Shown in pieces: positions 40,153-58,847 of a stretch of 64,000 nucleotides of DNA. The first letter of the stretch is position 1. Each line of letters starts with the position of its first letter. Source of the DNA: Candidatus Woesebacteria bacterium (GTDB lineage Bacteria; Patescibacteriota; Microgenomatia; UBA8517); NCBI GenBank assembly GCA_013374835.1, contig CP055307.1, positions 74,447 through 138,446 on the forward strand. The letters run 5' to 3'. A program made the position numbers and the translations under genes. The notes under the pieces were generated by a model. It was not told where the DNA came from. It saw only the letters and a list, made by a program, of their open reading frames with translations, and did not search any database.

Positions 40153-41601
40153 ATGGTTTATTTTATTCTAATTCTTGGCTACTCGCTTAATCTTATTTTT
40201 ATAAGTATTTTTAAATACAACTATTCGTATGACGAAATCATAGTTACCGAAATAAGCAAACAGCCAATAAGCACTCTATTAAATACAATCAAAGCAGAGC
40301 CACACCCTCCCGGGTTTTATTTTTTATTAAAATTTCTCCCGGTAGATAATCCGACCGCGACAAAATTAATAATCACGTCAGCAAGCTTCATCCTTTCCAC
40401 AGCTACCATTTTCTTTCTACACAAAAAGGAATTAATCAATAAATTCAAGCTCAAACACGGGCTTACGCTTTTTTTCTCGTCTTTTACCTTTCTCTCCACA
40501 AGCACAGAGGTAAAACAAACAAGCCTTTCAGCACCCATACTTCTGCTTTTTCTCTCCACTTTGTTTTATACGGCTAATAAAAACAAAATAAGCCAGATAA
40601 ACATAATAACTATTAATATTAGTGTTCTACTTCTTCTGTCACTGGGCTACATCAACTATTTAATAGGACTCTTTACCCTAATTGCCATCTGTTTAATCAA
40701 AAAAAATAAATTATTAATTTACTCATCAATCTTTCAACTAATTATATTGCTTTTTTTTCTAAAACTATTTGCGCTGGATCAAATCATAATTAATACCCAT
40801 AGGTTCTCTTGGATAAACGAATTTTATTCAAACCCAATAAATTTATTAAGCACCCACATTTCAGGCTTCTATTCTCAACATCCCGCCCTGGATATTCCTC
40901 TAATCTTTTTTCTCCTGCTAATTTTTTTGGGAATCTACAAAAACAACACAAAAACACCCAAAGCATTCTACTATGCCCAAATTGTTGCTCTAATACTATT
41001 TCTTATTACAATAATTACAAAAACCTCTGTAAGAGTAAGGTATTCAACTCCCCTGCTTTTTACGCTTAGCACCCTGGCAGGCTGGGGACTAATAGCTCTA
41101 AACAACGCTTTCAAAACAAACTCGCTTTATAAACCGACAATTTCCCTTTTCTTTTGTCTGGGATTTTTAGGACATATCTACAACCAAACAACCATCCAAA
41201 AAAATAACCAAATAATAGTCAACGCTGTCAATTCCTTTCCCGAGAACAAAAAGGTAGCTCTCGCAATCGACAGAGAAATTTATCCCCTCGCTTTCAAATT
41301 AAAATTCTTCAAAAACAAAAAGAATTTAATTCCGGTAAATTTTTTTAACCCCGGTCTAATTGAAAACTCTCAAACAATTACCCAAAAGCATTTAACAAAT
41401 TATTCCTTACCCGGTCTCCCACTCAAAATTAAATATGAAAACTATCTATTTGTAGATATTCAAAGGCCGATTAAATCAAATAGCGAAAAGGATAAAATCA
41501 ATTTAATCCTCACCCTTAACAAATCCTGTAAACAATCAAACATTATTAATATCAATAATTCATTTACACTCTATTCTTTTGAAGACTGTCTTTCAAAATA
41601 A
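40153..41601 (+). CDS. GT-C fold glycosyltransferase (ArnT/PMT-like) embedded in the pilin array
   Basis: YDEIIVTEISKQP...AEPHPPGFYFLL matches the DE-x-Y...hPPL first-loop signature of GT39/GT83 enzymes. ~12 TM plus a C-terminal soluble domain. Confidence 0.5.
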   Translation: MVYFILILGYSLNLIFISIFKYNYSYDEIIVTEISKQPISTLLNTIKAEPHPPGFYFLLKFLPVDNPTATKLIITSASFILSTATIFFLHKKELINKFKLKHGLTLFFSSFTFLSTSTEVKQTSLSAPILLLFLSTLFYTANKNKISQINIITINISVLLLLSLGYINYLIGLFTLIAICLIKKNKLLIYSSIFQLIILLFFLKLFALDQIIINTHRFSWINEFYSNPINLLSTHISGFYSQHPALDIPLIFFLLLIFLGIYKNNTKTPKAFYYAQIVALILFLITIITKTSVRVRYSTPLLFTLSTLAGWGLIALNNAFKTNSLYKPTISLFFCLGFLGHIYNQTTIQKNNQIIVNAVNSFPENKKVALAIDREIYPLAFKLKFFKNKKNLIPVNFFNPGLIENSQTITQKHLTNYSLPGLPLKIKYENYLFVDIQRPIKSNSEKDKINLILTLNKSCKQSNIININNSFTLYSFEDCLSK

Positions 41602-41643
41602 CGAAAGCCTTGCCGAGATGTTTTCTCCAATATAAAATGAGTT

Positions 41644-41976
41644 ATGAACATGCTTACCCCATTTGTTTATGCAATAGATCCAAGCAACATCCAAGACGGA
41701 GATGTGCCAATACTAAGAGGCCTCGAAGACGTATTTGAATCTGTAATAAGCCTTGCTATTCCGCTTGCCGCCATTGTCCTTTTTGTTCTTCTTATCATAG
41801 GTGGATTCAAATACCTCACAGCCGGCTCAAACGCGGGCAAAGTCGAGGCAGCTCAAAAAACCATAACTTACGCAATTTTAGGCATGGTCCTTATTGCCCT
41901 AGCCTATTTGATATTAGAATTTATCGCCGCATTCACAGGAGCTACTTATCTACGCCAATTCAGAATAAGAATATAA
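41644..41976 (+). CDS. pilin-like protein, subfamily B
   Basis: LLIIGGFKYLTAGSNAGKVEAAQKTITYAILGMVLI. Confidence 0.5.
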   Translation: MNMLTPFVYAIDPSNIQDGDVPILRGLEDVFESVISLAIPLAAIVLFVLLIIGGFKYLTAGSNAGKVEAAQKTITYAILGMVLIALAYLILEFIAAFTGATYLRQFRIRI

Positions 41977-41994: not shown

Positions 41995-44900
41995 ATGAAA
42001 AAAAAGGCAATAAAATTTACCCTCATACAAGCCAGCGTATTCACTTTTTTAATTTTTCTCAGCAAATCTATATATGCACAAACCCCGGTGGACCTAAGAG
42101 ATTTCATTGCAGGACCCGACTTTGTTCCCCATTCTTTAAGCTCTGGAGAACAAATCAGCTTTTCTTCAGAAGGAGATTGTCACGCAATGGGCCAAGCCGT
42201 AAGGCAATACAAAAACGCAAACTACGAACAGTTCTGCATAGGAGCAGATGGTGTTTATAGACAAGAGGATACAAGCTGGGCAATTTCAATTGGAAACAGG
42301 CTCCAAAATGCACACTGTAAGGGCACTCTTGACAAAGCAATTATTACCTCAGACCCAGGATGCACCACCTATACCCCAGGCTCTCAAGTAACAACAGACG
42401 GAGCCTGGTGGGCCCCAGCCGGAATCGGCTCAATGACCACAGGACAATCCTATTCCTACATCACCCACAATCCATGGCAAATAGTAACAATAAACAACAA
42501 TATCCTCCAATCCGGAGGAGGTAAAATCTACTGTGAAATCGAAGAAAGCCCGTATTCAGATAGATATAAATCCCCAAACACCTGTGGATCCACCATCTCC
42601 GTCTCTCTTACCTACTACGACGCCGGTGAATACGAATTCTGCACCGGACTAAAAAACAACGAGCCAGTAATCGCCATGGGCGCAACCTCAGGCCCCGGCT
42701 CAGACGAAAAAATAATCTACATGAAAGGCTGGGGAATAGTGGGTTTCGAATCTCCATTTATGACAGTTGGGCTAATGGGAACGGACAACTATGGAAACAC
42801 AGCCGACCCCTCAGGCTGCACTACACCAGGAGCTTTTGGCCCTGGAGCCTCGGGTGTGCAGTGCGAAGATGAATTTTTCCCTGAATTTCACTCCCTGCGC
42901 CCATACCCTGCGTGTCCAATCCCCCCCGACATTATGGACACAAGCTTTCTCCTCTGCGGAAACGACCTTATAACCCAGGAAACCCTTGAAATAAGATACG
43001 GCGAAGATCTGCCCGATGGAATTTCACTAATTAACTGCACGGAAGAAGAAGAAAATTTAATTTGCAATTACAAAATTACAAATAGAACCATACCAATAAG
43101 AGTAGATCTCTCAGAAGCAGACCTCCCCATCATGGGACTTACCGAAGACCCCTTCTCAACCGAAGGTGATGAACCCTGGCCACACAAAAGAATCCCGGAC
43201 TCAGTTACCCCAGCCCAAAGAATGAACGAATACGTCAGCTGGTACTTAAACGGCACAATAGCAAGAGCCGAAGATCCGTTGCTTGCAGTAACCAACGATT
43301 ATCCCGAAAAACCAGACAATATAAGCGATCCTAAATTCGAAAAAATATTCCGCGACACGAGATTATTAATAAACTTCTCAGGCCCCCTAAGAAAACTTTT
43401 ACCCTGGAGAATCCAAGTAAGAGAAAGAGAGAAACAAATTTTTGAAGCATCCGGCTTTGGAGGCCCCGACGTCGCCGGAAACATCCGCCACAACCAAATT
43501 GTCGGCTGCACGTATGGGTTATCTATACCTAACTTTTGGGACATATTCAACATAGACGAAATCGGAGGAATACCTGGTCCATGCTATGAACCCAAAAAAG
43601 AAAACGACTTTATAATTCCTGATTTATTCCAAAGACAAATACACCGACTTTCCGACTGGCTCGAGGGAGGAGTAAACGAGGAGCTGGACAAATGGAACCG
43701 CCTTCCTCCGTACGACGAAGACATCGGCACCAAATACGAAAATTTTCAAGAATACTGGAAAGAATACAGGCGTTGGCGCGGACAAAGCTGCACACCAAGT
43801 TTGGATCTTGGTGATATACCACTCGATCAAATCCCTGGCATAGGATCAATTTTAGGATCTCTCTTAGACATCGTACCCAACCTTTATCTTTGCTACGACA
43901 ATCCATTAAAATTCAATTATTGGTCAAGCCTCTTTAGCTATATCCCCTTCTCATCAACTGAAGATAGAACCGGATATGCAGAAGGCCACCTGGACACTGC
44001 TCTTACGCAACAACCGCCAAGCGACGCAAATATCACAGACATTAATTTTACACCAAATCCGGGCACAATCCTGCCGGACGACGGAAAAATGAGGTTTCTC
44101 TATTTCCCCCACATGCAGGAAAGCGCAGAACTAGGATATCTGCTTCAGCAAACCTTCCTTACAAAAGGAGAAGGTGGCTTCTCAAATATCAACGAACAAG
44201 GTTACTACAATACAGAGCGCTGTGAATACCTAGACACCAGAAAAAACCCGGGTGACGATCTATACGGCGGCGATTTCGATCAAGAAGGTCTTCCATGGAA
44301 CCAGCCCGTAAACGACGAACGGACAATAGACGGAAACATAACATATTCAGGCACCTTCCAGTGCTCTTTCTATCTTGCAGAGCCGGTTTGCGATGGCATC
44401 GGCTACCCCGGCCAAGTCCACTGTAACACGGACGAGTGTAGACCATATGTTTGTACAGAATCCGGAAACTGGGAACCAGCTTGGGACACGATAACAGGAG
44501 GAGTAGGACAATACCCCTGTAGTGGAACAGCAGGAAATTGCACCTCCTCAAGCACATTCTCGCCACCGGATCCGGGTGTTTGTACAATAAACATAAGCAC
44601 TGCAACATCAATCTATATAGGCACACCAAAGGCAGAAGAAGTCTGGGATAGACTAGTAAACGGAAGCCAGTCGGTCTTCAGAAGAATTTACCCAAAAGTA
44701 GGAGCGGAAAAGCCTGTCGAAGAAATAAAAGACATCCCGGCAGAAGCCAAGGCAAGCTACTCCTCAGAAGATGGAAACGTCCAAGTCTTTGCAGGAAATC
44801 CAGCTGCAGCAAGGCCAGGCTCAAACGCAAAAATATTCTTCCCCCATATCGGCTCAATCTACGACTACTTTCTAAAAGGCATTCAAAAAGCCCTCAGACC

Positions 44901-45543
44901 AAAAGACATTCAAACCATCCAATCAGGCCCGTCATCCACCCCGCCTCCGCCTCAAAACACAGACTGCCCCATAAACTGCAACCAAGACGTACCAGATTCA
45001 GAAATTCCAACAGCCTATTTAGGAACATTCAAACAAAACATAATTAGGCTTGCAAACGACTTGTACGCAGGCACTGGTAGAAACTTCGCAAAAGAATGCT
45101 ACAACGACGTAGTAAAAAGATCGCTAAACGCGGGCTATAACCCAGCGTTTGTTATCACAATATGGCTTGCAGAAAGCGGGGCAAGCAACTACAACCAAGC
45201 TTGTACTACCCAAGACTTTGGGATAAACAGGCCAGAAATGGCGGCAGATTTTAACGAACAAATAAGATGGTTCTTTAATCTTACAAACATCTGGAACACC
45301 ACATATCCGGAATGCATAGACTGTAATATCTCAACAGGAGAATGTACCAATGGCTATACATATATGGAAAACTGGACACACCTTTTCAAATCTGAAGACC
45401 CAATAAACGCCACAGGAGAATGCGTTCCAGATCCGCCCTCACAAAGCAGGCTTGCAGACTACCAAAACATTTGGAATTGGGTTGCGCCCGCATGCCCATT
45501 TCCTCAAACGCCGTTTCACAACACATGTCCAAATATAAATTAA
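41995..45543 (+). CDS. large secreted Cys-rich protein (1182 aa) with C-terminal lysozyme-like / lytic transglycosylase-like region
   Basis: Signal peptide. ~45 Cys across the length. C-terminal block AGYNPAFVITIWLAESGASNYNQACTTQDFGINR resembles the SLT E-S-G catalytic motif. Confidence 0.45.
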   Translation: MKKKAIKFTLIQASVFTFLIFLSKSIYAQTPVDLRDFIAGPDFVPHSLSSGEQISFSSEGDCHAMGQAVRQYKNANYEQFCIGADGVYRQEDTSWAISIGNRLQNAHCKGTLDKAIITSDPGCTTYTPGSQVTTDGAWWAPAGIGSMTTGQSYSYITHNPWQIVTINNNILQSGGGKIYCEIEESPYSDRYKSPNTCGSTISVSLTYYDAGEYEFCTGLKNNEPVIAMGATSGPGSDEKIIYMKGWGIVGFESPFMTVGLMGTDNYGNTADPSGCTTPGAFGPGASGVQCEDEFFPEFHSLRPYPACPIPPDIMDTSFLLCGNDLITQETLEIRYGEDLPDGISLINCTEEEENLICNYKITNRTIPIRVDLSEADLPIMGLTEDPFSTEGDEPWPHKRIPDSVTPAQRMNEYVSWYLNGTIARAEDPLLAVTNDYPEKPDNISDPKFEKIFRDTRLLINFSGPLRKLLPWRIQVREREKQIFEASGFGGPDVAGNIRHNQIVGCTYGLSIPNFWDIFNIDEIGGIPGPCYEPKKENDFIIPDLFQRQIHRLSDWLEGGVNEELDKWNRLPPYDEDIGTKYENFQEYWKEYRRWRGQSCTPSLDLGDIPLDQIPGIGSILGSLLDIVPNLYLCYDNPLKFNYWSSLFSYIPFSSTEDRTGYAEGHLDTALTQQPPSDANITDINFTPNPGTILPDDGKMRFLYFPHMQESAELGYLLQQTFLTKGEGGFSNINEQGYYNTERCEYLDTRKNPGDDLYGGDFDQEGLPWNQPVNDERTIDGNITYSGTFQCSFYLAEPVCDGIGYPGQVHCNTDECRPYVCTESGNWEPAWDTITGGVGQYPCSGTAGNCTSSSTFSPPDPGVCTINISTATSIYIGTPKAEEVWDRLVNGSQSVFRRIYPKVGAEKPVEEIKDIPAEAKASYSSEDGNVQVFAGNPAAARPGSNAKIFFPHIGSIYDYFLKGIQKALRPKDIQTIQSGPSSTPPPPQNTDCPINCNQDVPDSEIPTAYLGTFKQNIIRLANDLYAGTGRNFAKECYNDVVKRSLNAGYNPAFVITIWLAESGASNYNQACTTQDFGINRPEMAADFNEQIRWFFNLTNIWNTTYPECIDCNISTGECTNGYTYMENWTHLFKSEDPINATGECVPDPPSQSRLADYQNIWNWVAPACPFPQTPFHNTCPNIN

Positions 45544-45574
45544 GCATTAGCCTCTTTTCTTTTCTCAAAAATAA

Positions 45575-47188
45575 ATGATATTATTAAAAATGATAAAAAT
45601 TAAAAAGAAAAACATGATCAAACGCCTGCTCATATTGTTTCTTTTAGTCAATTTACTATTCTTGTCTATTTTTGCCGCTCCTGCCAAGGCTCAATGGTAC
45701 AATCAATCCTTTGGCCAATGGTATGTACAAGTTTATGATAGCGAAAACCCGGCAGAAATATTCGGAGAGCGCTACACCGCCGCCCAGGTTCAATGGGTAA
45801 CATACGGATTTATAGCTCTTTTAATACACACAATTACAGAAAGACTTCCCATTAATCCGGAAAATATAGTAAATTTCATTACAACAGGAGACATTTCAGA
45901 ACTTTCTTCAAATAGCACTGCTCCACAACCAATCGCCCAAAACAAGGAGCAAAACGGCAAAAATCTTCTGCAGGAAATATTTAGAGACAAACCCCTTTCG
46001 GGAATAACTTATACCAAAGAAGCTATAAAAAACATCAAACTCATTCCTGAAGCTAAAGCCCAAACTACAGGTTTTGGATTTCAAACACTCGGACCAATAA
46101 GAGGATTGTGGAGAATCTCAAGAAACATTGCCTACACGCTTTTTGTCCTTGTAACAATTGTCTTGTCGTTTATGATAATGTTTCGCGTAAAAATCTCACC
46201 ACAAGCGGTAATTACGGTCCAATCAGCACTCCCAAGAATATTTCTTGCACTCATATTAGTCACATTTTCATATCCTATCGCTGGCTTTTTAATCGATATT
46301 ATGTACGTAACAATAGGTCTTATAAGCTTGCTTGTTGGCGGAACAAGCAATGCTCTTGATCTCTTCAATTTATTAACCAAAGGCCTTGATCCTCTAAAAA
46401 TTGGTTATGGCGCAGGTATATTGGGCATATTTTTTTACCTTCTTTATATATATATTATCTCTGCCCTCGGATTTTTTGCATACGGCATCGCTGATCTTAA
46501 TTCAGAACAAATCGGCGGTGGCGCAGGAGGTATCGGACTTGGACTTTTAATGCTTGTTTTTATATTTATATTTGTATTTGCAGCACTTTTTACATTTTTC
46601 AAAATAGTAATTCTTCTTTTCAAAACATTTACCACTATCTTAATTCTTACCATTATCGCCCCAATTCAATTAACGCTCGGGGTAGTAATGCCTGAACTTG
46701 GATTTGGTAATTGGCTTAAAAACTTCGTTAAAAACCTTGCCGTTTTCCCTACTTTGGGGTTGTTGTTACTACTGGCACTAATCTTTGCCTCATCAGCAGC
46801 AATTGCATTTATCAACCTCGACATTCCTGAAATAGGAATCCCAGAATTAAAAGCTCTGTCTTTCAACCCGGCAAGCTACAATCAATTCGAGGGTCAAGGA
46901 TGGCCGCCTTTCCTCGATCTAAACGGAGCCGCTCTCAACTTCGCCTTTGTAATAGTAAGTGTAGTAATTCTTGCAATGGCAGCAAAAGTAGATCAACTAA
47001 TAAACGCCCTCATGACAGGCCGGGTCTTTGGCTACGGCACAGCTCTATCCGAATTTACAGGAATAGCACCTCCAGAAGCAGGCCAAGCCGGGTGGATTAA
47101 TAAACAAATTAGTCAATTAAGACAAGCTAGAAAAGCTTCAGGACAAAGAGGTAGCGGGCTCGCAGGCAGCGCACAAGGCGGTGGATAA
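45575..47188 (+). CDS. VirB6/TrbL-like polytopic membrane protein
   Basis: Signal-like N-terminus and a ~150-aa periplasmic region, then at least 6 TM helices, then a Gly/Ser-rich tail (GSGLAGSAQGGG). Alternative start at 45614. Confidence 0.5.
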   Translation: MILLKMIKIKKKNMIKRLLILFLLVNLLFLSIFAAPAKAQWYNQSFGQWYVQVYDSENPAEIFGERYTAAQVQWVTYGFIALLIHTITERLPINPENIVNFITTGDISELSSNSTAPQPIAQNKEQNGKNLLQEIFRDKPLSGITYTKEAIKNIKLIPEAKAQTTGFGFQTLGPIRGLWRISRNIAYTLFVLVTIVLSFMIMFRVKISPQAVITVQSALPRIFLALILVTFSYPIAGFLIDIMYVTIGLISLLVGGTSNALDLFNLLTKGLDPLKIGYGAGILGIFFYLLYIYIISALGFFAYGIADLNSEQIGGGAGGIGLGLLMLVFIFIFVFAALFTFFKIVILLFKTFTTILILTIIAPIQLTLGVVMPELGFGNWLKNFVKNLAVFPTLGLLLLLALIFASSAAIAFINLDIPEIGIPELKALSFNPASYNQFEGQGWPPFLDLNGAALNFAFVIVSVVILAMAAKVDQLINALMTGRVFGYGTALSEFTGIAPPEAGQAGWINKQISQLRQARKASGQRGSGLAGSAQGGG

Positions 47189-47199
47189 AATTTAAAAAA

Positions 47200-49302
47200 T
47201 CAAATAGGTAAATTGTCTATAACCATAACAACCTTATCCATCAAATAAGCAGCTACTCTTTGATAAGGGTTCCTCTTCAACTTTCTGGCCCCTATTTCAT
47301 TAGCCTCATCTACGAACTTCCTAAAATGCGCCGCATTCTCACCAGACGGATATTTAACCCTTAATCTATAAGAACTCTTAAACGCAGTCCTTGCAGCTAC
47401 AACATAAACCCCTTTTACAATATTTTCTCGATATTTTCTATCTACTTCCAATTCACTAAAAGCGTCCGCCAACCCCCTCCAAGTTTTTATTCGACCTCTC
47501 ACTATAGCCTCATTAATCGTTTTTGCTCTGTCAATAGCGCCAAAAATATATTTAGAAAACGGCGTTTCGGAAACCTCATTAAAATCTAAAGTCTCAAGTT
47601 TCATATTCGGCCTAATATGTAAAATTTTTCTACCGTTTCCTAATAAAACATCTCGAAAAGTTATCTCCTTTTTTCCTTCCTTTTTGGCTCCCATATACGA
47701 AAACGCATCCTTGTATAATTCTTTTGGCAAAACATTTGACTTTTCACCCCTAAAAAGACGACCAGAAATCACATGCCGCTTTTTCTTTCTTAGTACGCTT
47801 GCCGACCAAGAACCAAATGGCACACTCCATTCTGACTCCCCATCTTTGGCTTTTTGCTCTAACCTCTCTTGGGGGTGCATCGAAATCCTTATTGGCAAAG
47901 ACATTAACCTAAAATCCATAGGAGGAATGCGGCTATTATTGTTTCGTTTATACCTCGAATCTTCATATTCAACTACATTGCCCTGTGTAAAGAAATTCCA
48001 AGCAGCTCGAGCTACATCGTCAGCATTTATTTCAACATCATCTCCGTTTTCGATTTTCTCCCGAACAACCCCATGTCTTGATAGCCACAAAGCCACATTG
48101 GAAACTAAAGTATCAAGGTCACTAAGTTCTTTAAAATCAAAAACCGTCCCACCGTTCTTAAACTTGCCATAAACAGCATCGTTCCTTTGAGTTTCAGTTG
48201 AGTTCAAATCCCTATCAAAAAATTCATTCAAATCAACCCCATCAACAACAATGGCTGTATATAAAGAAACGGCGTGCATAAAACCCGGAACTCTCCACAC
48301 CTGCCTACCCTGTACTTCATCGCATCCAAACAAAAATGAAATTTCATCTTTTGTTAATTCACCAATTGGATTGCTTGGATATAAATCATCAAAACTAAAT
48401 GTATTTACCTTGTGATAAAGAGCACGTGCTAATTTATATCTTATTTCCCACCATTTCTTTGTATCACCCTCAAGATCCTTCACCATAATATTTGGATTTA
48501 CACCTTCTACTGGAACTTTGGCGTCTTTTTCCAATCTCCTAAAAGAATTTCTAAAATCCTCCGGGGTTTCAAGAGTTTCTTTTCTTTCTTCCCACTGTCT
48601 GCGCTCCTGTCGCACTCTTTCCTCTTCTATCATTCTCACCCTCCTCTGTTCAGCAGCAATCTCTTGCAACAGCGCCGCCTCCACACCTCTCACATCCCGA
48701 CTAGAAGGTCTTGCAACTTCAGCGGACATATCACCAGTTAAACTATTAATGTTATATCTCTCTTCAAACCAACCTGTTGGAACAAAATTAAAATCCTCAA
48801 ATCTGTCAAGCGCATTAGCTTTCATTATTGGACCAAATTCTTTACTTACCCGCTTTCGCTCCATATCCAGTTTATTCACCAAACTCTGAACAGCAGCATC
48901 AAAAATCCCCACATATTTCTCTCCTTTTTCTTTGTCTAAAGCTTCTTCAAACTCTTGAGCAACAGAGATTATTTCCCGAAAATATTCGCCCCAATCAACC
49001 TTTCCACTATTATTAAAAATTTCTGTTTTTTCTACAATCTTAGATGCAAAGTCTTCAAAACCAGGAGCTGATTCTAAATACTTTCCCAACAATTCTTGAC
49101 CTTTTTTAATCCAACTGTTTAATTCACTCAATTTATGTGGGTCTAGAGAACGATTTTCTTTAATTTCTTTCTTGTAAGTTTCAATGTCTCGAATTATTTC
49201 CTTAGCAGTTACCTCATGCGCACCCTCTCCCCGCTCAGGAGCTCCACCCATACTCAAATCGTCTGGTCTGAAATGAATTTCAGGACTCATAGTATCATCC
49301 AT
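47200..49302 (-). CDS. large hypothetical cytoplasmic protein (700 aa) encoded antisense to the surrounding locus
   Basis: No TM and no signal peptide. Charged and coiled-coil-rich N-terminal half. No motif recognised. Confidence 0.45.
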   Translation of the reverse strand: MDDTMSPEIHFRPDDLSMGGAPERGEGAHEVTAKEIIRDIETYKKEIKENRSLDPHKLSELNSWIKKGQELLGKYLESAPGFEDFASKIVEKTEIFNNSGKVDWGEYFREIISVAQEFEEALDKEKGEKYVGIFDAAVQSLVNKLDMERKRVSKEFGPIMKANALDRFEDFNFVPTGWFEERYNINSLTGDMSAEVARPSSRDVRGVEAALLQEIAAEQRRVRMIEEERVRQERRQWEERKETLETPEDFRNSFRRLEKDAKVPVEGVNPNIMVKDLEGDTKKWWEIRYKLARALYHKVNTFSFDDLYPSNPIGELTKDEISFLFGCDEVQGRQVWRVPGFMHAVSLYTAIVVDGVDLNEFFDRDLNSTETQRNDAVYGKFKNGGTVFDFKELSDLDTLVSNVALWLSRHGVVREKIENGDDVEINADDVARAAWNFFTQGNVVEYEDSRYKRNNNSRIPPMDFRLMSLPIRISMHPQERLEQKAKDGESEWSVPFGSWSASVLRKKKRHVISGRLFRGEKSNVLPKELYKDAFSYMGAKKEGKKEITFRDVLLGNGRKILHIRPNMKLETLDFNEVSETPFSKYIFGAIDRAKTINEAIVRGRIKTWRGLADAFSELEVDRKYRENIVKGVYVVAARTAFKSSYRLRVKYPSGENAAHFRKFVDEANEIGARKLKRNPYQRVAAYLMDKVVMVIDNLPI

Positions 49303-49438: not shown

Positions 49439-50416
49439 ATGCACGATCAATTTTCAACATTCGAACAGCATCCGGTGCCACAAAACATCAGTTCATACCA
49501 GTTTAGGCTCATAGGAGACATGACCATCAAGCAATTCTTTCAGCTTGCAGGCGGGGCTTTAATTGCGCTTCTTTTTTACGCCTCCCCTTTCCCGGGTTTT
49601 ATCAAATGGCCGCTTATCATCTTTTTTGCACTGGCAGGAGCAGCCTTTGCCTTCCTTCCTCTTGAAGAACGTCCACTAGAAGAATGGGTAAAAGCATTTT
49701 TCCGATCCGTTTATTCACCTACAATCTATGTCTGGCAAAAAACACAAACCCCCCCCATTATTTTCGCCCAACAAGTAGCTCCAGTAGCAACCGAAGAAAA
49801 CGCACAAGAATCGGGTCAGCCACAAGACCCCGCCCAATCAAACCTTGATAAAGCAGAAAAAAAATTCTTTGACAAATTCACAAATCTTTTTTCAATATCC
49901 CCAGCAAGCCCACCCAAACAAACGGTCTCAATCCCACCCCAGCCAGTCAGCAACCCACCACAGCCAGAAACAACAACCGTTTCCATTAATGCACACCAAG
50001 GGTCAAAACCCAGCTTTAATATAAGCGTAAACGAAAACGAAAAAATAGCGACAAAAAACGCACCACAAACACTCATTGCACAACAAATCCAAAAAGCCCA
50101 AGCCGCACAATTTAGCCCGGAGTCAGCACCGCCCACCCCCCCAACACAGCCCAATATAGTTGTTGGCCAAACAATAAGCACCGAAGGAAAAATTATAGAA
50201 GGTGTAATACTCGAAATAAAAGACGCTCAAGGCCGTCCAGTACGCGCCCTCAAAAGCAACAAAGCAGGACACTTCCTAATAGTCACACCACTAAATAACG
50301 GCAAATATCAAATTACAGCCGAAAAGGAAGGCTTTGCATTCGACCCGATTGAAATAGAGGCAAACGGACAAATCATTCAACCTATCGCCATAAAAGCAAG
50401 GTCTCAACCAAACTAA
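49439..50416 (+). CDS. VirB3/PrgI-like small membrane module fused to a Pro/Gln-rich linker and a carboxypeptidase-regulatory-like beta-sandwich domain
   Basis: N-terminal ~100 aa with two TM helices directly upstream of VirB4. C-terminal GKIIEGVILEIKDAQGRPVRALKSNKAGHFLI...YQITAEKEGF, a transthyretin-like fold. Confidence 0.4.
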   Translation: MHDQFSTFEQHPVPQNISSYQFRLIGDMTIKQFFQLAGGALIALLFYASPFPGFIKWPLIIFFALAGAAFAFLPLEERPLEEWVKAFFRSVYSPTIYVWQKTQTPPIIFAQQVAPVATEENAQESGQPQDPAQSNLDKAEKKFFDKFTNLFSISPASPPKQTVSIPPQPVSNPPQPETTTVSINAHQGSKPSFNISVNENEKIATKNAPQTLIAQQIQKAQAAQFSPESAPPTPPTQPNIVVGQTISTEGKIIEGVILEIKDAQGRPVRALKSNKAGHFLIVTPLNNGKYQITAEKEGFAFDPIEIEANGQIIQPIAIKARSQPN

Positions 50417-50417
50417 A

Positions 50418-51119
50418 ATGCAAAATCCCATCAAAAAAATACCGCTCCTAAACATTCCGGACAAGCCCCTTGTCGGCACAACTCAAGATCACATTCCCGT
50501 TGCTGAAATTGAAAACGACATGGTTCTTCTCAAAGACGGTGGTGCGGCAATAATTCTAGAAACCACATCCCTTAACTTCGGACTTCTGTCTGAACGCGAA
50601 CAAGAAGCAGTAGTTGCAGCTTTTGCGGCACTCATCAATAGCCTTAGTTTTCCAATCCAGATTTTGGTAAGAACCGAAAAAAAAGACGTATCAAAATATC
50701 TTAAATCAATAGAAGAACATCTTCCAAATGTAAAAAGCGAAAAACTAAAAGGATTAATGATCGGCTATAAAAATTTCATCTCAGAAACCATAAAGAAAAA
50801 AAATGTGCTTGGAAAAAGGTTTTTTATAGTAATTCCCTTCTCTCCATTTGAATTAGGCGTTAATGCCAAATCGCTGTTGGATTTCAAAAAAAAGAAAAGG
50901 ACAATACCATACTCCAAGGAATACGTTATCAAAAAAATCCAAACCTCTCTCTACCCCAAAAGAGATCATTTAATCAGACAGGGCACCCGCCTAGGTTTAA
51001 AAATGCGACAACTAAACAACGAAGAAATAATTAAACTTTACTACAATATCTATAATCCCGATTTCGAAGCCATACAAGTAAAAGAAAAGGAGGAGGAAAT
51101 CAAAAATGAATCTATTTAA
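50418..51119 (+). CDS. VirB4/TraE-type ATPase, N-terminal domain encoded as a separate ORF
   Basis: IPVAEIENDMVLLKDGGAAIILETTSLNFGLLSEREQEAVVAAFAALINSLSFPIQILVRT matches the N-terminus of Gram-positive VirB4 homologs. 14-nt overlap with the next ORF. Confidence 0.55.
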   Translation: MQNPIKKIPLLNIPDKPLVGTTQDHIPVAEIENDMVLLKDGGAAIILETTSLNFGLLSEREQEAVVAAFAALINSLSFPIQILVRTEKKDVSKYLKSIEEHLPNVKSEKLKGLMIGYKNFISETIKKKNVLGKRFFIVIPFSPFELGVNAKSLLDFKKKKRTIPYSKEYVIKKIQTSLYPKRDHLIRQGTRLGLKMRQLNNEEIIKLYYNIYNPDFEAIQVKEKEEEIKNESI

Positions 51120-53016
51120 AGCCAGAGACAACATAAATCAAAAACACACAAATACCCAAATGCTAAATCCCAAAATTCCCGCCCCAACAAATCAAGGTCA
51201 AGAGGTTCGAAAGCAAAAATTTGCCGATCCCATAGCAGCGCTCAAAGAAATGCCGCTTCTTGACGTCCTTGCTCCAAACAAAATAGAGCTTGATTTCGAT
51301 TATATAGAAATAGACGGAGTATATTTCAGAACACTTTTTGTTGCAGGATACCCGCGCTTTGTCGTCCCCGGATGGATGGAGCCGATCATAAATTTCGACC
51401 ACAGCCTTGATATTTCATTCTTTATTTATCCTGTCGAGGGAAGAACAATCCTCGATGAATTAAGAAGAAAAATCACAGAAATGGAGGCTGAAATTGCAAC
51501 AGACATCCAAAGAGGAAAAATAATAAACCCAGCAACCGAAGCAAAACTGGAAGACGCCAAAATGCTTCAAGAACAGCTCGTTAGAGGAGCCGAGCGCTTC
51601 TTCGAATATTCTTTCTATATTACAATCCCGGCAACTTCTCTCGAAGCCTTAAATAGCATCACAAAAAGAGTAGAATCCACCTTATCCTCTCTTTTAATCG
51701 TTGCAAAACACGCTGCCCTTGATCACGAAAGAGGTTTTCTCTCAACAGCGCCCTTTGGCCGCGATATGCTTTCAATAACAAGAAACATGGACACAACATC
51801 TCTTGCCACCACCTTTCCGTTTACAACAGCCGAGCTAAGTAGCGACGAAGGAATTTTATACGGAATAAACTCTCAAAACGAGTCGTTTATTATATTCGAC
51901 CGATTCACTCTTGAAAATTCAAACATGACCGTTTTTGCTACTTCAGGCGCAGGAAAAAGCTTTTTCGTAAAACTAGAATCTCTTCGCTCTTTGATGTTCG
52001 GCACAGAAATAATAGTAATAGATCCGGAAAACGAATATCAAACACTCTGTGAAGCCGTAGGAGGAGAGTATATTAAATTCTCATACTCAAGCCCCTCAAA
52101 AATAAATCCGTTTGATCTCGCTCAAATATACGAAAAAGGCGAAAACCAGCTAAATCTCAAGCTTCTGTCTCTTCATTCATTGTTCAAAATAATAATGGGT
52201 GAATTAAACGCATCCCAAGAAGCCCTTCTTGATAGAGCTCTTATAAACGCCTACCGCGCAAAAGGCATTACTCCCGATCCCGAAACACAAACCAAAGAAC
52301 CGCCTCTTATTGAAGACCTCTATAAAGCTCTTATTGGAATGGAAACCTCTGAAGCCCTAGACCTCGCCGCACGCATTGAAAAATTTGTAAGAGGAAGCTA
52401 CGCGGGCGTCTTTGACAAACACACAAACATAGATATAAAAAATCCCTTCACCGTCTTTTCAATTAGAGATATTGAAGACAGCATCCGCCCAATATCAATG
52501 TTTATAATTCTTGACTTCATCTGGACAAAAATAAGACGCAACATAAAAAAACGCATCCTTGTTGTTGACGAGGCTTGGCACATGATGCGCTATCCTGATA
52601 CTGCTCAATTTCTCTGGTCTATTGTCAAAAGAGCCCGTAAATACTATCTTGGCCTGACAACAATCACCCAAGATGTTGAAGATTTTCTAGCCCAAGACAT
52701 TGGCAAAGCAGTAGTCACAAACTCAGCTCTAAGGCTCCTTCTCAAACAAAGCCCGGCTGCAATAGACAAGGTTTCGGAAACATTCTACTTATCACAGGGC
52801 GAAAAACAGCTCCTTCTCGGTGCAAATATAGGCGAAGGTATCCTCTTCGCAGGCCCCCACCATGCACCAATAAGAATTGTCGCATCAAACGAAGAGTATC
52901 GATTAATAACAACTAATCCAAAAGACCTTGAGAAAAATCCAGCCTCACCCGAGCTTACACCGGTCGAGTCTGCAAAAATCATAGGCTATTCAAAAGAAGA
53001 AGGAAATATTGTCTAA
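51106..53016 (+). CDS. VirB4/TraE/CagE-type T4SS ATPase (core and ATPase domains)
   Basis: Walker A FATSGAGKSFF. VIDPENEY. Walker B ILVVDEAWHMM. Perfect SD AAGGAGGAGG 8 nt upstream, inside the preceding ORF. Confidence 0.75.
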   Translation: MNLFKARDNINQKHTNTQMLNPKIPAPTNQGQEVRKQKFADPIAALKEMPLLDVLAPNKIELDFDYIEIDGVYFRTLFVAGYPRFVVPGWMEPIINFDHSLDISFFIYPVEGRTILDELRRKITEMEAEIATDIQRGKIINPATEAKLEDAKMLQEQLVRGAERFFEYSFYITIPATSLEALNSITKRVESTLSSLLIVAKHAALDHERGFLSTAPFGRDMLSITRNMDTTSLATTFPFTTAELSSDEGILYGINSQNESFIIFDRFTLENSNMTVFATSGAGKSFFVKLESLRSLMFGTEIIVIDPENEYQTLCEAVGGEYIKFSYSSPSKINPFDLAQIYEKGENQLNLKLLSLHSLFKIIMGELNASQEALLDRALINAYRAKGITPDPETQTKEPPLIEDLYKALIGMETSEALDLAARIEKFVRGSYAGVFDKHTNIDIKNPFTVFSIRDIEDSIRPISMFIILDFIWTKIRRNIKKRILVVDEAWHMMRYPDTAQFLWSIVKRARKYYLGLTTITQDVEDFLAQDIGKAVVTNSALRLLLKQSPAAIDKVSETFYLSQGEKQLLLGANIGEGILFAGPHHAPIRIVASNEEYRLITTNPKDLEKNPASPELTPVESAKIIGYSKEEGNIV

Positions 53017-53017
53017 C

Positions 53018-55904: not shown

Positions 55905-57008
55905 TTACTCTTGAGTCTTTACAGGCATAATAATATGATAAAAATTGTTGCTTTGCCCATCCCTAAAAACCCCGGGAGAAATAGAATCAGTAAATTCCAT
56001 AATAACCTCATCCCCATCAACCACATTCAAAAAATCCTCAATAAAACGATAATTATAAGTAATTTCAACTTCCCCACCCTCAACTTTCGCATCTATTTTA
56101 ATATTTTGGCTTCCCGACCGTGAACTCTCGGAAGAAAGCCCAATTCCCTCATCTAAAACTTTCAATTTAACAGTATTAGCACTATCACGAGCAAAAACAG
56201 AAGCAAGCTTAATAGCTCTTAACAAATCTTCTTTTGAAACAATTGCTTTTACGTTGTAACTTTTAGGGACTATTTTTTCAAAATCAGGGAAATCGCCTTC
56301 AATCAACCTACTGGAAAAGATATTTCCATCAAAACCAAACAACACCTGGTTATCACCACTTCTGTACTCAAAATCAAGCATTTCTTCAACGTCTCTAAAA
56401 CGGGAAATTTCAGCCAAAATGTTCCTAGGAACTATAAATTTACATGGCTTTACTTTTTCTCCCAATAAAAACTTGACAGATGACAACCTAAATCCATCAG
56501 ATGAAACAAGAAGAAGACTATCTCCTTGAAAAACAAACAAAACCCCCGTTAAAATAGGTCTGGTTTCGTCTCGAGACACACTAAAAAGCACTTTACCCAA
56601 CATATCTGAAAATTTCTCAAAATTAATTTTTTTAACGTCCCTGCCGATTTTTTCTGGAATACTAGGAAAATCTGAAGTGTTCATTCCTGCTAAATTTGCA
56701 TAAAAAGCATTCGAGGTTACTAAAAGCGTTTCATTCCTAGATTCCAAGGCTACCGTCTCATAAGCTAAATTTAAAAGTATTTCAGAAAAATTTCTGGCAG
56801 GTACTGCAATATCCCCTTCTTTACTTATTTTTGCAGCAATAGATCCGCAAAAAGAATTTTCAAGATTAGTTGCCATAACATAAATTTTATTTTTGGATGT
56901 TTTAATAACGCTATTTTCAAGTATCGGAAGCTGCGACCTTGTTGAGGTAAATCTAGTAGCAATACTCAAAATTTTTGAAAGTTCATTTCTTAAAACAATC
57001 GCCTTCAT
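55905..57008 (-). CDS. dnaN: DNA polymerase III beta sliding clamp DnaN
   Basis: 367 aa. Three-domain clamp pattern. Position immediately downstream of dnaA. Confidence 0.85.
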   Translation of the reverse strand: MKAIVLRNELSKILSIATRFTSTRSQLPILENSVIKTSKNKIYVMATNLENSFCGSIAAKISKEGDIAVPARNFSEILLNLAYETVALESRNETLLVTSNAFYANLAGMNTSDFPSIPEKIGRDVKKINFEKFSDMLGKVLFSVSRDETRPILTGVLFVFQGDSLLLVSSDGFRLSSVKFLLGEKVKPCKFIVPRNILAEISRFRDVEEMLDFEYRSGDNQVLFGFDGNIFSSRLIEGDFPDFEKIVPKSYNVKAIVSKEDLLRAIKLASVFARDSANTVKLKVLDEGIGLSSESSRSGSQNIKIDAKVEGGEVEITYNYRFIEDFLNVVDGDEVIMEFTDSISPGVFRDGQSNNFYHIIMPVKTQE

Positions 57009-57224
57009 TACTAAAAATTATATTTAAGTTTTATTTTTTTTCAATTCTTAATATTAATTAGTAATAGTAGTAGTAGTTATTGTTGATATGTTAATTTATC
57101 TTGCCTATTTAAGTTAAAAATCCATTGTTAATATTAAGTATGAAAAAATGTAAATAAAAATGTGAATAAAATTATTATTTTTGTGGATAAGTTGATAAAT
57201 AAATATTTTATCAATAACTTATCC
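57009..57224. promoter_or_regulatory. candidate oriC / DNA-unwinding element (dnaA-dnaN intergenic)
   Basis: Very AT-rich. (TAG)x4 repeat at 57065-57076. Perfect DnaA box TTATCCACA (revcomp at 57182-57190). One-mismatch boxes TTATCCTCA at 57219-57227 and 57250-57258. Confidence 0.6.
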
Positions 57225-58592: not shown

Positions 58593-58613
58593 TGATAGCC
58601 TTAAACTAATAAG

Positions 58614-58622
58614 TTATCCACA
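58614..58622 (+). promoter_or_regulatory. perfect DnaA box (TTATCCACA) in the dnaA upstream region
   Basis: Exact 9-mer 22 nt upstream of the dnaA start codon. Confidence 0.55.
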
Positions 58623-58706
58623 TTTCGTCAACCCTTAAAAAACACGAAACGTAAAAATTAATCCGTTGTAAAAACAAAAAACTTTTGTGTTATAATCTCA
58701 TTTGAT

Positions 58707-58844
58707 ATGCCAAAAAGAACCTATCAGCCAAGTAAAATTAAAAAAGCTAGAAAATTCGGTTATCGCGCAAGAACTAAAACAAAAAAGGGAGTTAAAATCC
58801 TCCAAAGAAGAAAACTTAAAGGAAGAAAAAGACTTACCCATTAA
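58707..58844 (+). CDS. rpmH: 50S ribosomal protein L34
   Basis: [45 protein letters not shown]. Missed by the ORF track because it is under 60 aa. Confidence 0.9.
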
Positions 58845-58847
58845 ACC

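What the first reader, a model, noticed from the sequence alone, without database searches (positions are those of the whole stretch)
41995..45543. 1182-aa secreted Cys-rich protein with SLT-like C-terminus: candidate pilus-associated adhesin or wall-lytic VirB1 analog
It has a signal peptide and ~45 cysteines spread through the length, with no TM. The C-terminal block ...IWLAESGASNYNQACTTQDFGINR resembles the E-S-G...GLMQ catalytic region of family-1 lytic transglycosylases. It sits between the pilin array and the VirB6-like gene.
Basis: partly seen in the sequence, partly recalled or inferred. Interest (0 to 1): 0.55.

Follow-up and report, generated by a model that had tools for sequence, protein, structure and literature searches.

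The report
Secreted wall-cutting protein of Woesebacteria T4SS
This gene encodes a large exported, cysteine-rich protein that is a fixed part of the type IV secretion/pilus gene cluster of Woesebacteria (ultra-small, probably host-dependent bacteria). It combines a 700-residue core with no recognisable relative and a divergent lysozyme-like end that most likely cuts cell-wall sugar chains, which could be the wall-opening enzyme reported as missing from these systems.

Summary
The ORF is real: 41995-45543 (+), 1182 aa, with a signal peptide and no other hydrophobic segment. It has 36 cysteines, not about 45, and no repeated Cys modules. It has four parts:
- a rare, optional N-terminal head (residues 29-287);
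- a conserved core (about 288-975), modelled confidently (pTM 0.81), with no Pfam, PDB-sequence or Foldseek-PDB neighbour;
- a proline-rich linker;
- a C-terminal domain (991-1182).

The domain model (pLDDT 88) finds lysozyme-like enzymes first in two structure libraries: a GH73 glucosaminidase (prob 0.97) and a phage SLT protein (prob 0.94). No hit reaches E<1e-3, and no SLT or GH73 sequence model matches. In relatives the same position holds Pfam SLT_3 or SLT-like domains.

The gene sits between the VirB2-like pilin array and a polytopic membrane protein in 53 of 55 related loci, all labelled Woesebacteria, Microgenomates or Patescibacteria, or carrying placeholder titles.

Best reading: a T4SS-associated muralytic protein that works like VirB1 or PrgK. 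It is a lysozyme-superfamily fold, not a demonstrable family-1 lytic transglycosylase. An adhesin role is untested.

The parts
41995..42078 (+). Signal peptide (residues 1-28: MKKK, hydrophobic core, ..SIYA|Q)
   Evidence: This is the only hydrophobic segment in the protein. Relatives that share the head domain begin their mature part with a similar A-Q.. junction. Cleavage is inferred from the sequence and was not tested.
42079..42855 (+). Optional N-terminal 'head' domain (residues 29-287). Conserved motifs NANYEQF and R.EDTSWA, plus 6 conserved Cys.
   Evidence: Only 10-11 of the 120 closest relatives share it. An exhaustive HMM search of 1.84 billion representatives finds only 94 proteins. 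It occurs with and without the core, and next to Peptidase_M23 or VanY domains. It has no Pfam or PDB-sequence match.
42856..44919 (+). Family-defining conserved core (residues about 288-975). Motifs: PEFHSLRPY, MGNTE, NEYVSWYLNG, SGPL.KLLP, RHDQIV.C, PFSSTEDR.G, FAHMEE, RTNPGDD, FPHIGG..EYFLKGIQ.ALRPKG.
   Evidence: All 120 relatives cover it. Conservation map. AlphaFold2 model: pLDDT 81.2, pTM 0.81, mixed alpha/beta with 15-18-residue strands. There is no Pfam, NCBIfam or PHROG hit and no PDB sequence hit with the profile. Foldseek against PDB gives a best E of 2.1 and TM below 0.1.
44920..44964 (+). Pro/Ser-rich linker (residues 976-990, QSGPSSTPPPPQNTD)
   Evidence: Low pLDDT at the end of the core model and the start of the C-terminal model. 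This stretch is variable in the alignments.
44965..45540 (+). C-terminal all-alpha, disulfide-rich lysozyme-like domain (residues 991-1182)
   Evidence: 91 of 120 relatives share it. Model: pLDDT 87.7, pTM 0.88. The top Foldseek PDB hit is the GH73 domain 8yxk_A (E 0.1, prob 0.97), and 13 of 32 listed hits are GH73 enzymes or lytic transglycosylases. The top BFVD hit is a phage SLT-domain protein (E 0.088, prob 0.94), and that list is dominated by transglycosylases, glucosaminidases and tail lysozymes. In relatives the position is taken by SLT_3 or SLT-like domains.
45160..45231 (+). Putative active-site block IWLAESGASNYNQACTTQDFGINR (residues 1056-1079). The proposed catalytic Glu is E1060, nt 45172-45174.
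   Evidence: W1057, E1060, S1064, N1065, D1074 and G1076 are invariant in 29 sequences. The motif is present in 79 of 91 relatives. E1060 (domain residue 76) sits at the C-terminal end of model helix 66-77, in a block with pLDDT 92.
35942..41976 (+). Context: array of about 10 VirB2-like T4SS_pilin (PF18895) genes directly upstream, interrupted by a 482-aa 6-TM protein
   Evidence: Pfam hits. Pilin genes lie upstream of the family gene in 53 of 55 related loci of at least 15 kb.
45575..47188 (+). Context: 537-aa polytopic membrane protein directly downstream (candidate VirB6 analogue)
   Evidence: About 10 hydrophobic segments and no Pfam hit. It is present on the same strand immediately downstream in 53 of 55 loci.
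49439..53016 (+). Context: PrgI/VirB3-like gene (49439-50416), TrsD/TraC-like gene (50418-51119) and VirB4-type ATPase gene (51106-53016)
   Evidence: Pfam and NCBIfam hits. They co-occur with the family gene in 49, 48 and 44 of 55 loci respectively.

Best explanation
The gene encodes a Sec-exported, disulfide-rich, modular component of the chromosomal monoderm-type T4SS/pilus system of Woesebacteria (Patescibacteria). Its enzymatic part is a divergent lysozyme-superfamily domain at the C-terminus.

Proposed mechanism:
1. The protein is exported and its signal peptide is removed. This is inferred from the sequence.
2. The conserved 700-aa core folds outside the membrane and holds the protein at the secretion/pilus apparatus. 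This is inferred only from strict co-conservation with the pilin array and the downstream polytopic protein.
3. The C-terminal domain uses the invariant E1060 as general acid to cleave peptidoglycan glycan strands. That would open the wall for pilus or channel passage, either in the producer's own wall or in the wall of the host cell it attaches to. The fold and the conservation are shown; the activity, the bond cleaved and the target wall are inferred.
4. The optional N-terminal head is a rare module that elsewhere accompanies M23 and VanY wall peptidases. It probably binds or processes a cell-envelope ligand (inferred).

Functionally the protein works like VirB1, PrgK, TraG or TcpG, the wall hydrolases of T4SSs.
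For: ORF, signal peptide and absence of other TM segments.

Family and synteny:
- 339 relatives were found; all that carry names are from Patescibacteria or Woesebacteria.
- 93 relatives were found in GTDB species genomes. The closest is Ca. Woesebacteria UBA1430, at 94% identity.
- Gene order is conserved in 5 annotated loci.
- Across 55 loci of at least 15 kb: pilins in 53, downstream polytopic protein in 53, SpoIID in 51, PrgI in 49, TrsD in 48, VirB4 in 44.

C-terminal domain:
- Invariant W/E/S/N/D/G block.
- Confident model with E1060 at a helix end.
- The best matches in two independent structure libraries are lysozyme-like enzymes, with prob 0.97 and 0.94.

Domain swapping at the same position:
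- SLT_3 above Pfam's cut-off in 6 relatives.
- SLT at E 4e-4 in P0072.
- ES/EG...G(L/P)(M/F)Q-type tails visible by eye.
- hhalign puts ..IWL.ES.. in register with the ..aI...E(G/S).. of those tails, E 0.045.

Domain association outside the family:
- The same C-terminal domain type sits next to Peptidase_M23 (P0131) or VanY (P0142, P0146).
- P0131 is itself encoded just upstream of PrgI, TraC-like and VirB4 genes.

Literature:
- A 2025 survey found VirB1 homologues rarely linked to virB4 in Patescibacteria, and suggested that other glycosidases may take that role (PMC12102498).
- PrgK shows that a Gram-positive T4SS relies on a multi-domain muramidase (PMC11323569).
Against: - No structural match is individually significant: the best E is 0.09-0.1 and TM is 0.43-0.55.
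- No sequence model of SLT, SLT_3, GH73 or C-type lysozyme matches the domain.
- Neither the profile search against PDB sequences nor the ranking of pCF10 ORFs links it to known lysozyme-like enzymes.
- hhalign against the family's own SLT_3 tails gives nothing in the catalytic region.
- The role of the core, which is 58% of the protein, is pure inference.
- The locus already encodes other wall-active proteins, a SpoIID-domain protein and an NAGPA protein, so this protein need not be the VirB1 equivalent.
- Signal-peptide cleavage, enzymatic activity and physical association with the T4SS are all untested.
Confidence: 0.6

Rival explanations
1. It is primarily a host-binding adhesin or pilus-tip protein. 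The core and head bind the host surface. The lysozyme-like domain is accessory, for local penetration, or is a non-catalytic glycan-binding module.
For: - The gene is the first non-pilin gene after the pilin array, on the same strand with an 18-nt gap.
- The protein is large, exported and disulfide-rich.
- The N-terminal heads are interchangeable: at least 9 unrelated types, including NAGPA- and GH5-like ones. That pattern is expected for host-range determinants.
- No PrgB-like adhesins were found in Patescibacteria T4SS loci (PMC12102498), so the role is vacant.
Against: - There is no adhesin, lectin or Ig-like domain hit, no LPXTG motif, and no structural neighbour for the core. The hits to the P110 adhesin are at noise level, E 5-8.
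- 61 of 121 family members have no head at all.
- The invariant Glu block argues that the C-terminal domain is catalytic.
- Two Cys-rich pilin fusions in the array (35942-36673, 37092-37847) are equally good tip candidates.
Confidence: 0.2
2. It is a released bacteriolytic effector that attacks the host cell wall to free nutrients. It is encoded beside the T4SS but is not a structural or assembly part of it.
For: - It has a Sec signal and no anchor.
- The wall-hydrolase tails are swappable and the heads are variable, as in polymorphic lysins and phage tail lysins.
- The lineage is probably epibiotic, and T4SS genes are essential for epibiotic growth in a cultivated relative (PMC10633639).
Against: - The 700-aa core is strongly conserved and the gene position inside the T4SS operon is fixed in 53 of 55 loci. 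A diffusible effector would not be expected to show this.
- No adjacent immunity-like gene was noted. The immediate downstream gene is the conserved polytopic membrane protein.
Confidence: 0.12
3. The C-terminal domain is not an enzyme. It is a Cys-stabilised helical interaction domain whose 'ES' block is structural, and the resemblance to lysozymes is convergent or a model artefact.
For: - All structural E-values are at least 0.09, with TM about 0.45.
- Every sequence-based link failed.
- PrgK shows that predicted hydrolase domains in T4SS proteins can be degenerate (PMC11323569).
Against: - Two independent libraries put lysozyme-like enzymes on top and throughout the lists.
- An acidic residue is invariant exactly where the fold has its catalytic Glu.
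- The position is replaced by bona fide SLT_3 domains in relatives.
- The domain is fused to M23 and VanY wall peptidases elsewhere.
Confidence: 0.12
4. It is a housekeeping autolysin for growth or division that merely lies next to the T4SS genes.
For: The locus is chromosomal and next to dnaN and dnaA. A SpoIID-type wall enzyme is also nearby.
Against: The gene is embedded between the pilin array and the T4SS membrane components on the same strand, with tiny gaps, in nearly all relatives. The family appears confined to genomes with this locus.
Confidence: 0.04

Closest known systems
PrgK (pCF10), TraG (pIP501) and TcpG (pCW3): multi-domain wall hydrolases of Gram-positive conjugative T4SSs (VirB1 functional class)
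   Same: - Encoded inside a monoderm-type T4SS cluster that has PrgI/VirB3, TrsD and VirB4 genes.
- Large and extracytoplasmic.
- Carries a lysozyme-superfamily glycosidase module, combined in relatives with other wall-hydrolase modules.
- PrgK's 'SLT' domain is the active muramidase of that system (PMC11323569).
   Different: - There is no detectable sequence similarity.
- It has no CHAP, LytM or NlpC/P60 domain.
- It is exported with a probably cleavable signal rather than an N-terminal anchor.
- The bulk of the protein is a 700-aa core that has no counterpart in these proteins.
- It sits directly after a VirB2-like pilin array, which Gram-positive systems lack.
GH73 N-acetylglucosaminidases (for example C. 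difficile endolysin Ecd09610 8yxk, Listeria Auto 3fi7, T. maritima 4qdn, LytB 7pj4)
   Same: These give the best structural match (prob 0.97, TMt 0.55). From my own knowledge of the family, GH73 enzymes have a Glu-Ser-Gly context for the acid and a downstream ..FG(I/V).. motif, which resembles ES-G...DFGI here.
   Different: There is no PF01832 match, identity is 9-16%, and I saw no YATD-type Tyr motif in the alignment. The domain has extra disulfides and a conserved C-terminal P.PTD..CP tail.
Family-1 lytic transglycosylases and goose-type lysozymes (GH23; Pfam SLT, SLT_3; phage SLT and LT_GEWL proteins)
   Same: - Lysozyme-like fold, with the Glu followed by Ser at a helix end.
- These are the top BFVD hits.
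- Relatives carry SLT_3 or SLT-like domains at the same position.
   Different: There is no SLT or SLT_3 HMM match, the sequence reads DFGI(N) where GLMQ would be, and there is no AYN.G-type third motif. hhalign to the family's own SLT_3 tails finds nothing in the catalytic region.
Phage tail-associated lysins and tape-measure proteins with terminal lysozyme-like domains
   Same: A large structural body carries a small, exchangeable wall-cutting domain. Such proteins appear among the BFVD hits.
   Different: The bodies show no similarity, and this gene is chromosomal and lies in a T4SS operon rather than a prophage.

Membership tests
Family-1 lytic transglycosylase (Pfam SLT PF01464 / SLT_3 PF18896; GH23) | Match to the family HMM at or above the curated cut-off | tested here: not met
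   The whole protein gives no Pfam family at E<=10. None of the 29 C-terminal domains matches SLT or SLT_3 at E<=1.
Family-1 lytic transglycosylase (Pfam SLT PF01464 / SLT_3 PF18896; GH23) | Catalytic Glu followed by Ser at the C-terminal end of a helix | tested here: met
   E1060-S1061. The Glu is invariant and lies at the end of model helix 66-77.
Family-1 lytic transglycosylase (Pfam SLT PF01464 / SLT_3 PF18896; GH23) | G-L-M-Q second motif and A-Y-N-x-G third motif downstream of the Glu (motifs recalled from my own knowledge) | tested here: not met
   The consensus downstream is SNY...QDFGIN...Q. No GLMQ or AYN.G is present.
Family-1 lytic transglycosylase (Pfam SLT PF01464 / SLT_3 PF18896; GH23) | Non-hydrolytic cleavage that yields 1,6-anhydroMurNAc | not testable with these tools
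   This needs muropeptide LC-MS of digests.
Lysozyme-like superfamily (fold level) | Lysozyme-like alpha-rich fold recovered by structure comparison | tested here: met
GH73 N-acetylglucosaminidase (Pfam PF01832) | Match to the family HMM | tested here: not met
   No match. The profile search against PDB sequences finds no GH73 chain.
GH73 N-acetylglucosaminidase (Pfam PF01832) | Closest structural neighbours are GH73 domains | tested here: inconclusive
   Ranks 1-3 in PDB are GH73, but only rank 1 has a high probability. In BFVD an SLT protein ranks first and a GH73 enzyme second.
VirB1-class T4SS wall hydrolase (functional class) | Encoded within a T4SS gene cluster | tested here: met
   The gene lies between the pilin array and the VirB6-like, PrgI, TrsD and VirB4 genes. 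The order is conserved in 44-53 of 55 loci.
VirB1-class T4SS wall hydrolase (functional class) | Extracytoplasmic muralytic domain | tested here: inconclusive
   It has a signal peptide and a lysozyme-like model with an invariant Glu. Activity was not measured.
VirB1-class T4SS wall hydrolase (functional class) | Contributes to T4SS or pilus assembly or function | not testable with these tools
   This needs genetics in a cultivable relative.
Gram-positive T4SS surface adhesin (PrgB/PrgC type) | LPXTG sortase anchor and adhesin domains | tested here: not met
   No LPXTG-like motif and no adhesin domains in Pfam or NCBIfam.

The most novel reading that the evidence does not exclude
The conserved 700-aa core is a new fold that forms the distal or wall-spanning part of the Patescibacteria T4SS pilus apparatus. 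It would carry exchangeable wall-degrading 'warheads' (this GH73/SLT-like domain, SLT_3 or SLT at the C-terminus; NAGPA, GH5-like or other heads at the N-terminus) to breach the cell envelope of the host bacterium. That would be a secretion-system analogue of a phage tail-tip lysin, and a host-range determinant of epibiotic ultra-small bacteria.
Probability: 0.25. Interest if true: 0.8.

Novelty: new variant of a known kind. Interest (0 to 1): 0.55.

Why it matters
T4SS genes, including the pilin array, are essential for epibiotic growth of the one genetically tractable patescibacterium (Wang et al. 2023, PMC10633639). What the system does, and how it crosses cell walls, is unknown. The 2025 survey of these systems found VirB1 homologues rarely linked to virB4. 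It concluded that pilus biogenesis may not need one, or that other glycosidases take the role, and it found no adhesins (PMC12102498).

This family is a concrete candidate for that missing wall-opening function in Woesebacteria and Microgenomatia. It is strictly syntenic with the pilins and has an invariant putative catalytic Glu that can be mutated. It also adds two uncatalogued domains: a 700-aa core with no Foldseek-PDB neighbour, and a divergent lysozyme-like domain. Its interchangeable heads and tails suggest adaptation to different envelopes. That makes the question of whether the target is the producer's own wall or the host's wall directly testable.

Tried and rejected
- Pfam, NCBIfam and PHROGs scans of the whole protein and its neighbours gave nothing for the target.
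- phmmer and profile searches of PDB sequences with the whole protein, the head, the core plus tail, and the C-terminal domain gave only noise. A single-sequence hit of residues 143-228 to GH11 xylanases (E 0.4) disappeared with the head-domain profile, so I dropped it.
- Foldseek of the core against PDB gave nothing. The weak NTF2-like and Mycoplasma P110 hits (E 5-8, 19-61 aligned columns) are noise.
- hhalign of the C-terminal profile against the family's SLT_3 tails found no link. Against the SLT-like tails it gave only a 34-column match at E 0.045, though the Glu was in register.
- I ranked all pCF10 ORFs with the C-terminal profile, using hmmsearch --max and hhalign. PrgK and Tn916 Orf14 were not picked out.
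- My by-eye guess that P0106 ends in an M23 peptidase was not confirmed by Pfam, so I dropped it.
- There are no repeated Cys modules or internal repeats, and no paralogue of any part elsewhere in the window.
- A search with the C-terminal domain of P0131 found one weak hit only.
- The promoter and terminator scan gave no convincing + strand terminator flanking the gene. That fits an operon, but counts were near shuffle expectation for promoters.


Full report
**1. The observation**

The ORF at 41995-45543 (+) is real: ATG to stop, 1182 aa. Hydropathy shows one hydrophobic stretch only, at residues about 5-23. It follows MKKK and is followed by SKSIYA|QTP, which is a Sec-type signal peptide. 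There is no other TM segment and no LPXTG-like anchor.

The cysteine count is 36, not about 45. That is still 3.05% against a median of 0.54% for 41 ORFs in the window. The family median is 2.86%, and 96 of 120 relatives have an even number of Cys, which fits an extracytoplasmic disulfide-bonded protein. A self-comparison finds no internal repeats, so the suggested repeated Cys-spacing modules do not exist.

The block IWLAESGASNYNQACTTQDFGINR is at residues 1056-1079.

- About ten T4SS_pilin (PF18895) genes lie at 35942-41976.
- The target starts 18 nt after the last of them.
- A roughly 10-TM, 537-aa protein follows 31 nt downstream.
- Further downstream are a PrgI/VirB3-like gene, a TrsD/TraC-like gene and a VirB4-type ATPase gene.

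**2. Anatomy from homologues**

A database search found 339 relatives. Every one that carries a name is from Patescibacteria or Woesebacteria, all are annotated as hypothetical, and the closest is 94% identical. Mapping the hits onto the query shows four parts:
- (a) A head, residues 29-287, is shared by only 10-11 of the 120 closest relatives.
- (b) A core, about 288-975, is shared by all. Its strongly conserved motifs are PEFHSLRPY, MGNTE, NEYVSWYLNG, SGPL.KLLP, RHDQIV.C, PFSSTEDR.G, FAHMEE, RTNPGDD and FPHIGG..EYFLKGIQ.ALRPKG.
- (c) A Pro-rich linker.
- (d) A C-terminal domain, 991-1182, is shared by 91 of 120.

Of 121 family sequences, 61 are just signal peptide plus core plus tail. The 43 with N-terminal extensions longer than 120 aa fall into at least 9 unrelated types. 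These include NAGPA (P0087, P0097, P0120) and a GH5-like domain (P0070).

**3. The C-terminal domain**

*Conservation.* In a 29-sequence alignment at about 35% mean identity, the invariant non-Cys residues are W1057, E1060, S1064, N1065, D1074, G1076 and Q1089. WxxE[ST]xxSN...D[FM]G is found in 79 of 91 relatives.

*Sequence methods find nothing.* There is no Pfam hit for the protein or for any of the 29 domains, even at E<=1. The profile search against PDB sequences gives nothing relevant.

*Structure.* The AlphaFold2 model from this alignment is confident: pLDDT 87.7, pTM 0.88, six helices. E1060 sits at the C-terminal end of helix 66-77 in domain numbering.
- Foldseek against PDB puts the GH73 glucosaminidase domain of C. 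difficile endolysin Ecd09610 first (E 0.1, prob 0.97, TMt 0.55). Next come Listeria Auto and the T. maritima glucosaminidase. Slt, MltE, MltF, Slt35, SltB1-3 and LytB appear further down. In all, 13 of the 32 listed hits are lysozyme-like wall glycosidases.
- Foldseek against predicted viral structures puts a phage SLT-domain protein first (E 0.088, prob 0.94). It is followed by a GH73 enzyme, LT_GEWL proteins, tail lysozymes, tape-measure and minor tail proteins, and the PRD1 transglycosylase.
- No single hit is significant (none has E<1e-3), but the enrichment in two independent libraries is clear.

*Independent context evidence.*
- In the 29 relatives that lack this tail, the same position after the ..LRPKG motif is mostly taken by other lysozyme-like tails. 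Ten look SLT_3-type, six of them confirmed above Pfam's cut-off, and about 15 look SLT-like by eye. Of the latter, P0072 scores SLT at E 4e-4.
- hhalign aligns ..ECYNDVV..GVNP.F.L.IWL.ES.. with the ..aA..y.vP..lL.aI...E(G/S).. of the SLT-like tails, with the Glu in register, at a weak E of 0.045.
- Outside the core family, the same domain type sits beside Peptidase_M23 (P0131) and VanY (P0142, P0146).
- P0131 is itself encoded just upstream of PrgI, TraC-like, VirB4, dnaN and dnaA genes in another genome.

*Negative controls of my own.*
- The domain profile does not pick PrgK or Tn916 Orf14 out of the pCF10 ORFs.
- It does not align with the family's own SLT_3 tails in the catalytic region.

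*Conclusion.* This is a divergent lysozyme-superfamily domain, probably a peptidoglycan glycosidase. It cannot be assigned to GH23 rather than GH73, and it is not a demonstrable member of the SLT family.

**4. The core and the head**

The core model is confident as a single unit (703 residues, pLDDT 81.2, pTM 0.81). It is mixed alpha/beta with unusually long strands. Foldseek against PDB finds nothing: the best E is 2.1 and TM is below 0.1. The profile search against PDB sequences finds nothing either. More sensitive or larger libraries were unavailable. So 'no known fold' means no Foldseek-PDB neighbour, not proof of a new fold.

The many conserved polar residues (H299, R302, H499, Q501, E656, D657, H706, E709, R749, D754 and others) would fit either a second active site or tight interaction surfaces. 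I cannot tell which.

The head is a rare domain. An exhaustive HMM search of 1.84 billion representatives gives only 94 proteins, 46 of them below E 1e-30. They occur with or without the core, and several have M23 or VanY wall peptidase domains. That association suggests an envelope-directed module. It has no Pfam or PDB match.

**5. Genomic context and distribution**

A scan of one genome per GTDB species found 93 relatives, of which 77 loci were kept. Their titles say Woesebacteria, Microgenomates or Patescibacteria, or carry the label 'uncultured Gammaproteobacteria' on MAGs. I take that label to be a placeholder, because those loci share the same gene order and one such record is an 811-kb chromosome. 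The best match is Ca. Woesebacteria UBA1430.

In 55 loci of at least 15 kb:
- pilin genes are present in 53;
- the polytopic protein lies immediately downstream on the same strand in 53;
- a divergently oriented SpoIID-domain gene lies upstream in 51;
- PrgI is present in 49, TrsD in 48 and VirB4 in 44.

Gene calls with precomputed Pfam hits in four loci show the same order. In the window the cluster abuts dnaN, dnaA, rnpA, yidC and jag. This matches the published observation that Patescibacteria T4SS loci often lie near the origin of replication (PMC12102498).

**6. What is known**

The 2025 survey of Patescibacteria T4SSs detected VirB1 homologues only rarely near virB4, outside Paceibacteria. 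[quoted passage not shown] It does not mention this family.

T4SS genes and the pilin array are essential for epibiotic growth of Southlakia epibionticum (PMC10633639; PMC12857230). In Gram-positive conjugation systems the wall hydrolase is a multi-domain protein. In PrgK only the 'SLT' domain is active, and it acts as a muramidase (PMC11323569).

**7. Interpretation**

The best-supported reading (confidence about 0.6) is a Sec-exported T4SS component. Its conserved core ties it to the pilus/secretion apparatus, and its C-terminal lysozyme-like domain cuts peptidoglycan glycan strands using E1060. That makes it a functional analogue of VirB1, PrgK or TcpG.

What is shown:
- the ORF and its export signal;
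- the domain structure;
- the invariant acidic site;
- the lysozyme-like model;
- the tail swapping;
- the strict synteny.

What is inferred:
- catalysis and the bond cleaved;
- docking by the core;
- whether the substrate is the producer's own wall or the host's.

The exchangeable tails and heads lean towards an envelope that varies between lineages, such as the host's. Modular hydrolases are also typical of self-directed T4SS enzymes, so this is not decisive.

The rivals are a tip adhesin, a released lytic effector, a non-catalytic helical domain, and a housekeeping autolysin. They are listed with their tests.

**8. Verdict**

I rate the novelty as a new variant of a known kind. It is a T4SS wall hydrolase built on an uncatalogued 700-aa core with a divergent lysozyme-like domain, and it fills a gap noted in the recent literature. 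Interest is 0.55.

Noticed in passing
window 35942-36673 and 37092-37847 (+): Two genes of the pilin array encode 243- and 251-aa proteins with about 170-aa Cys-rich N-terminal extensions (14 and 20 Cys; 5.8% and 8%) ahead of a C-terminal T4SS_pilin domain. They are possible minor or tip pilins, and therefore alternative adhesin candidates.
   Followed up: partly
window 45575-47188 (+): A 537-aa protein with a signal-like N-terminus and about 10 hydrophobic segments has no Pfam, NCBIfam or PHROG hit. It lies immediately downstream of the family gene in 53 of 55 loci. It is a likely divergent VirB6 analogue, a component reported as scarce in Microgenomatia (PMC12102498).
   Followed up: partly
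window 40153-41601 (+): A 482-aa, 6-TM membrane protein interrupts the pilin array. tblastn finds it only in the two loci from the closest relative (the same UBA1430 contig), and it has no family hit.
   Followed up: no
window 53009-55381 (+): A 790-aa protein with a TTG start overlapping the end of virB4 has 2 TM segments, 14 Cys and a C-terminal NAGPA (phosphodiester glycosidase) domain. The same NAGPA domain occurs as the N-terminal head fused to the core family in P0087, P0097 and P0120, so these envelope-active modules appear to be shuffled within the locus.
   Followed up: partly
window 34199-35884 (-): A secreted 561-aa protein has an N-terminal coiled-coil region and a SpoIID domain. 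It is transcribed divergently from the pilin array and is conserved in 51 of 55 loci. It is a second wall-remodelling enzyme tied to the T4SS.
   Followed up: partly
window 47200-49302 (-): A 700-aa protein with no TM segment and no family hit lies on the opposite strand inside the T4SS cluster. A gene of similar size and orientation is present in other loci, but sequence similarity is detectable in only 5 of 55, so it is evolving fast.
   Followed up: no
window 55905-60721: dnaN (-), dnaA (-), rnpA, yidC and a jag-like KH/R3H gene show that the T4SS cluster lies next to the chromosomal replication origin, as reported for many Patescibacteria (PMC12102498).
   Followed up: yes
loci L007-L009, L011, L017-L020, L040 and others: Many species-representative MAGs that carry this Patescibacteria-type locus are titled 'uncultured Gammaproteobacteria bacterium'; one (L040, OZ246419.1) is an 811-kb chromosome. 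The titles look like placeholders or mislabels.
   Followed up: no
L085 1268-3607 (protein P0131): A 779-aa protein without the core combines the same head domain, a Peptidase_M23 domain and the same C-terminal lysozyme-like domain type. It is encoded just upstream of PrgI, TraC-like, VirB4, dnaN and dnaA genes in another genome.
   Followed up: partly
window 42001-46000: The target gene is richer in G+C (0.44-0.45) and has a stronger AT skew (0.20-0.23) than most of its surroundings, where G+C is mostly 0.35-0.41. This is probably a result of its G/P/T/S/D/N-rich composition, but I did not examine it further.
   Followed up: no
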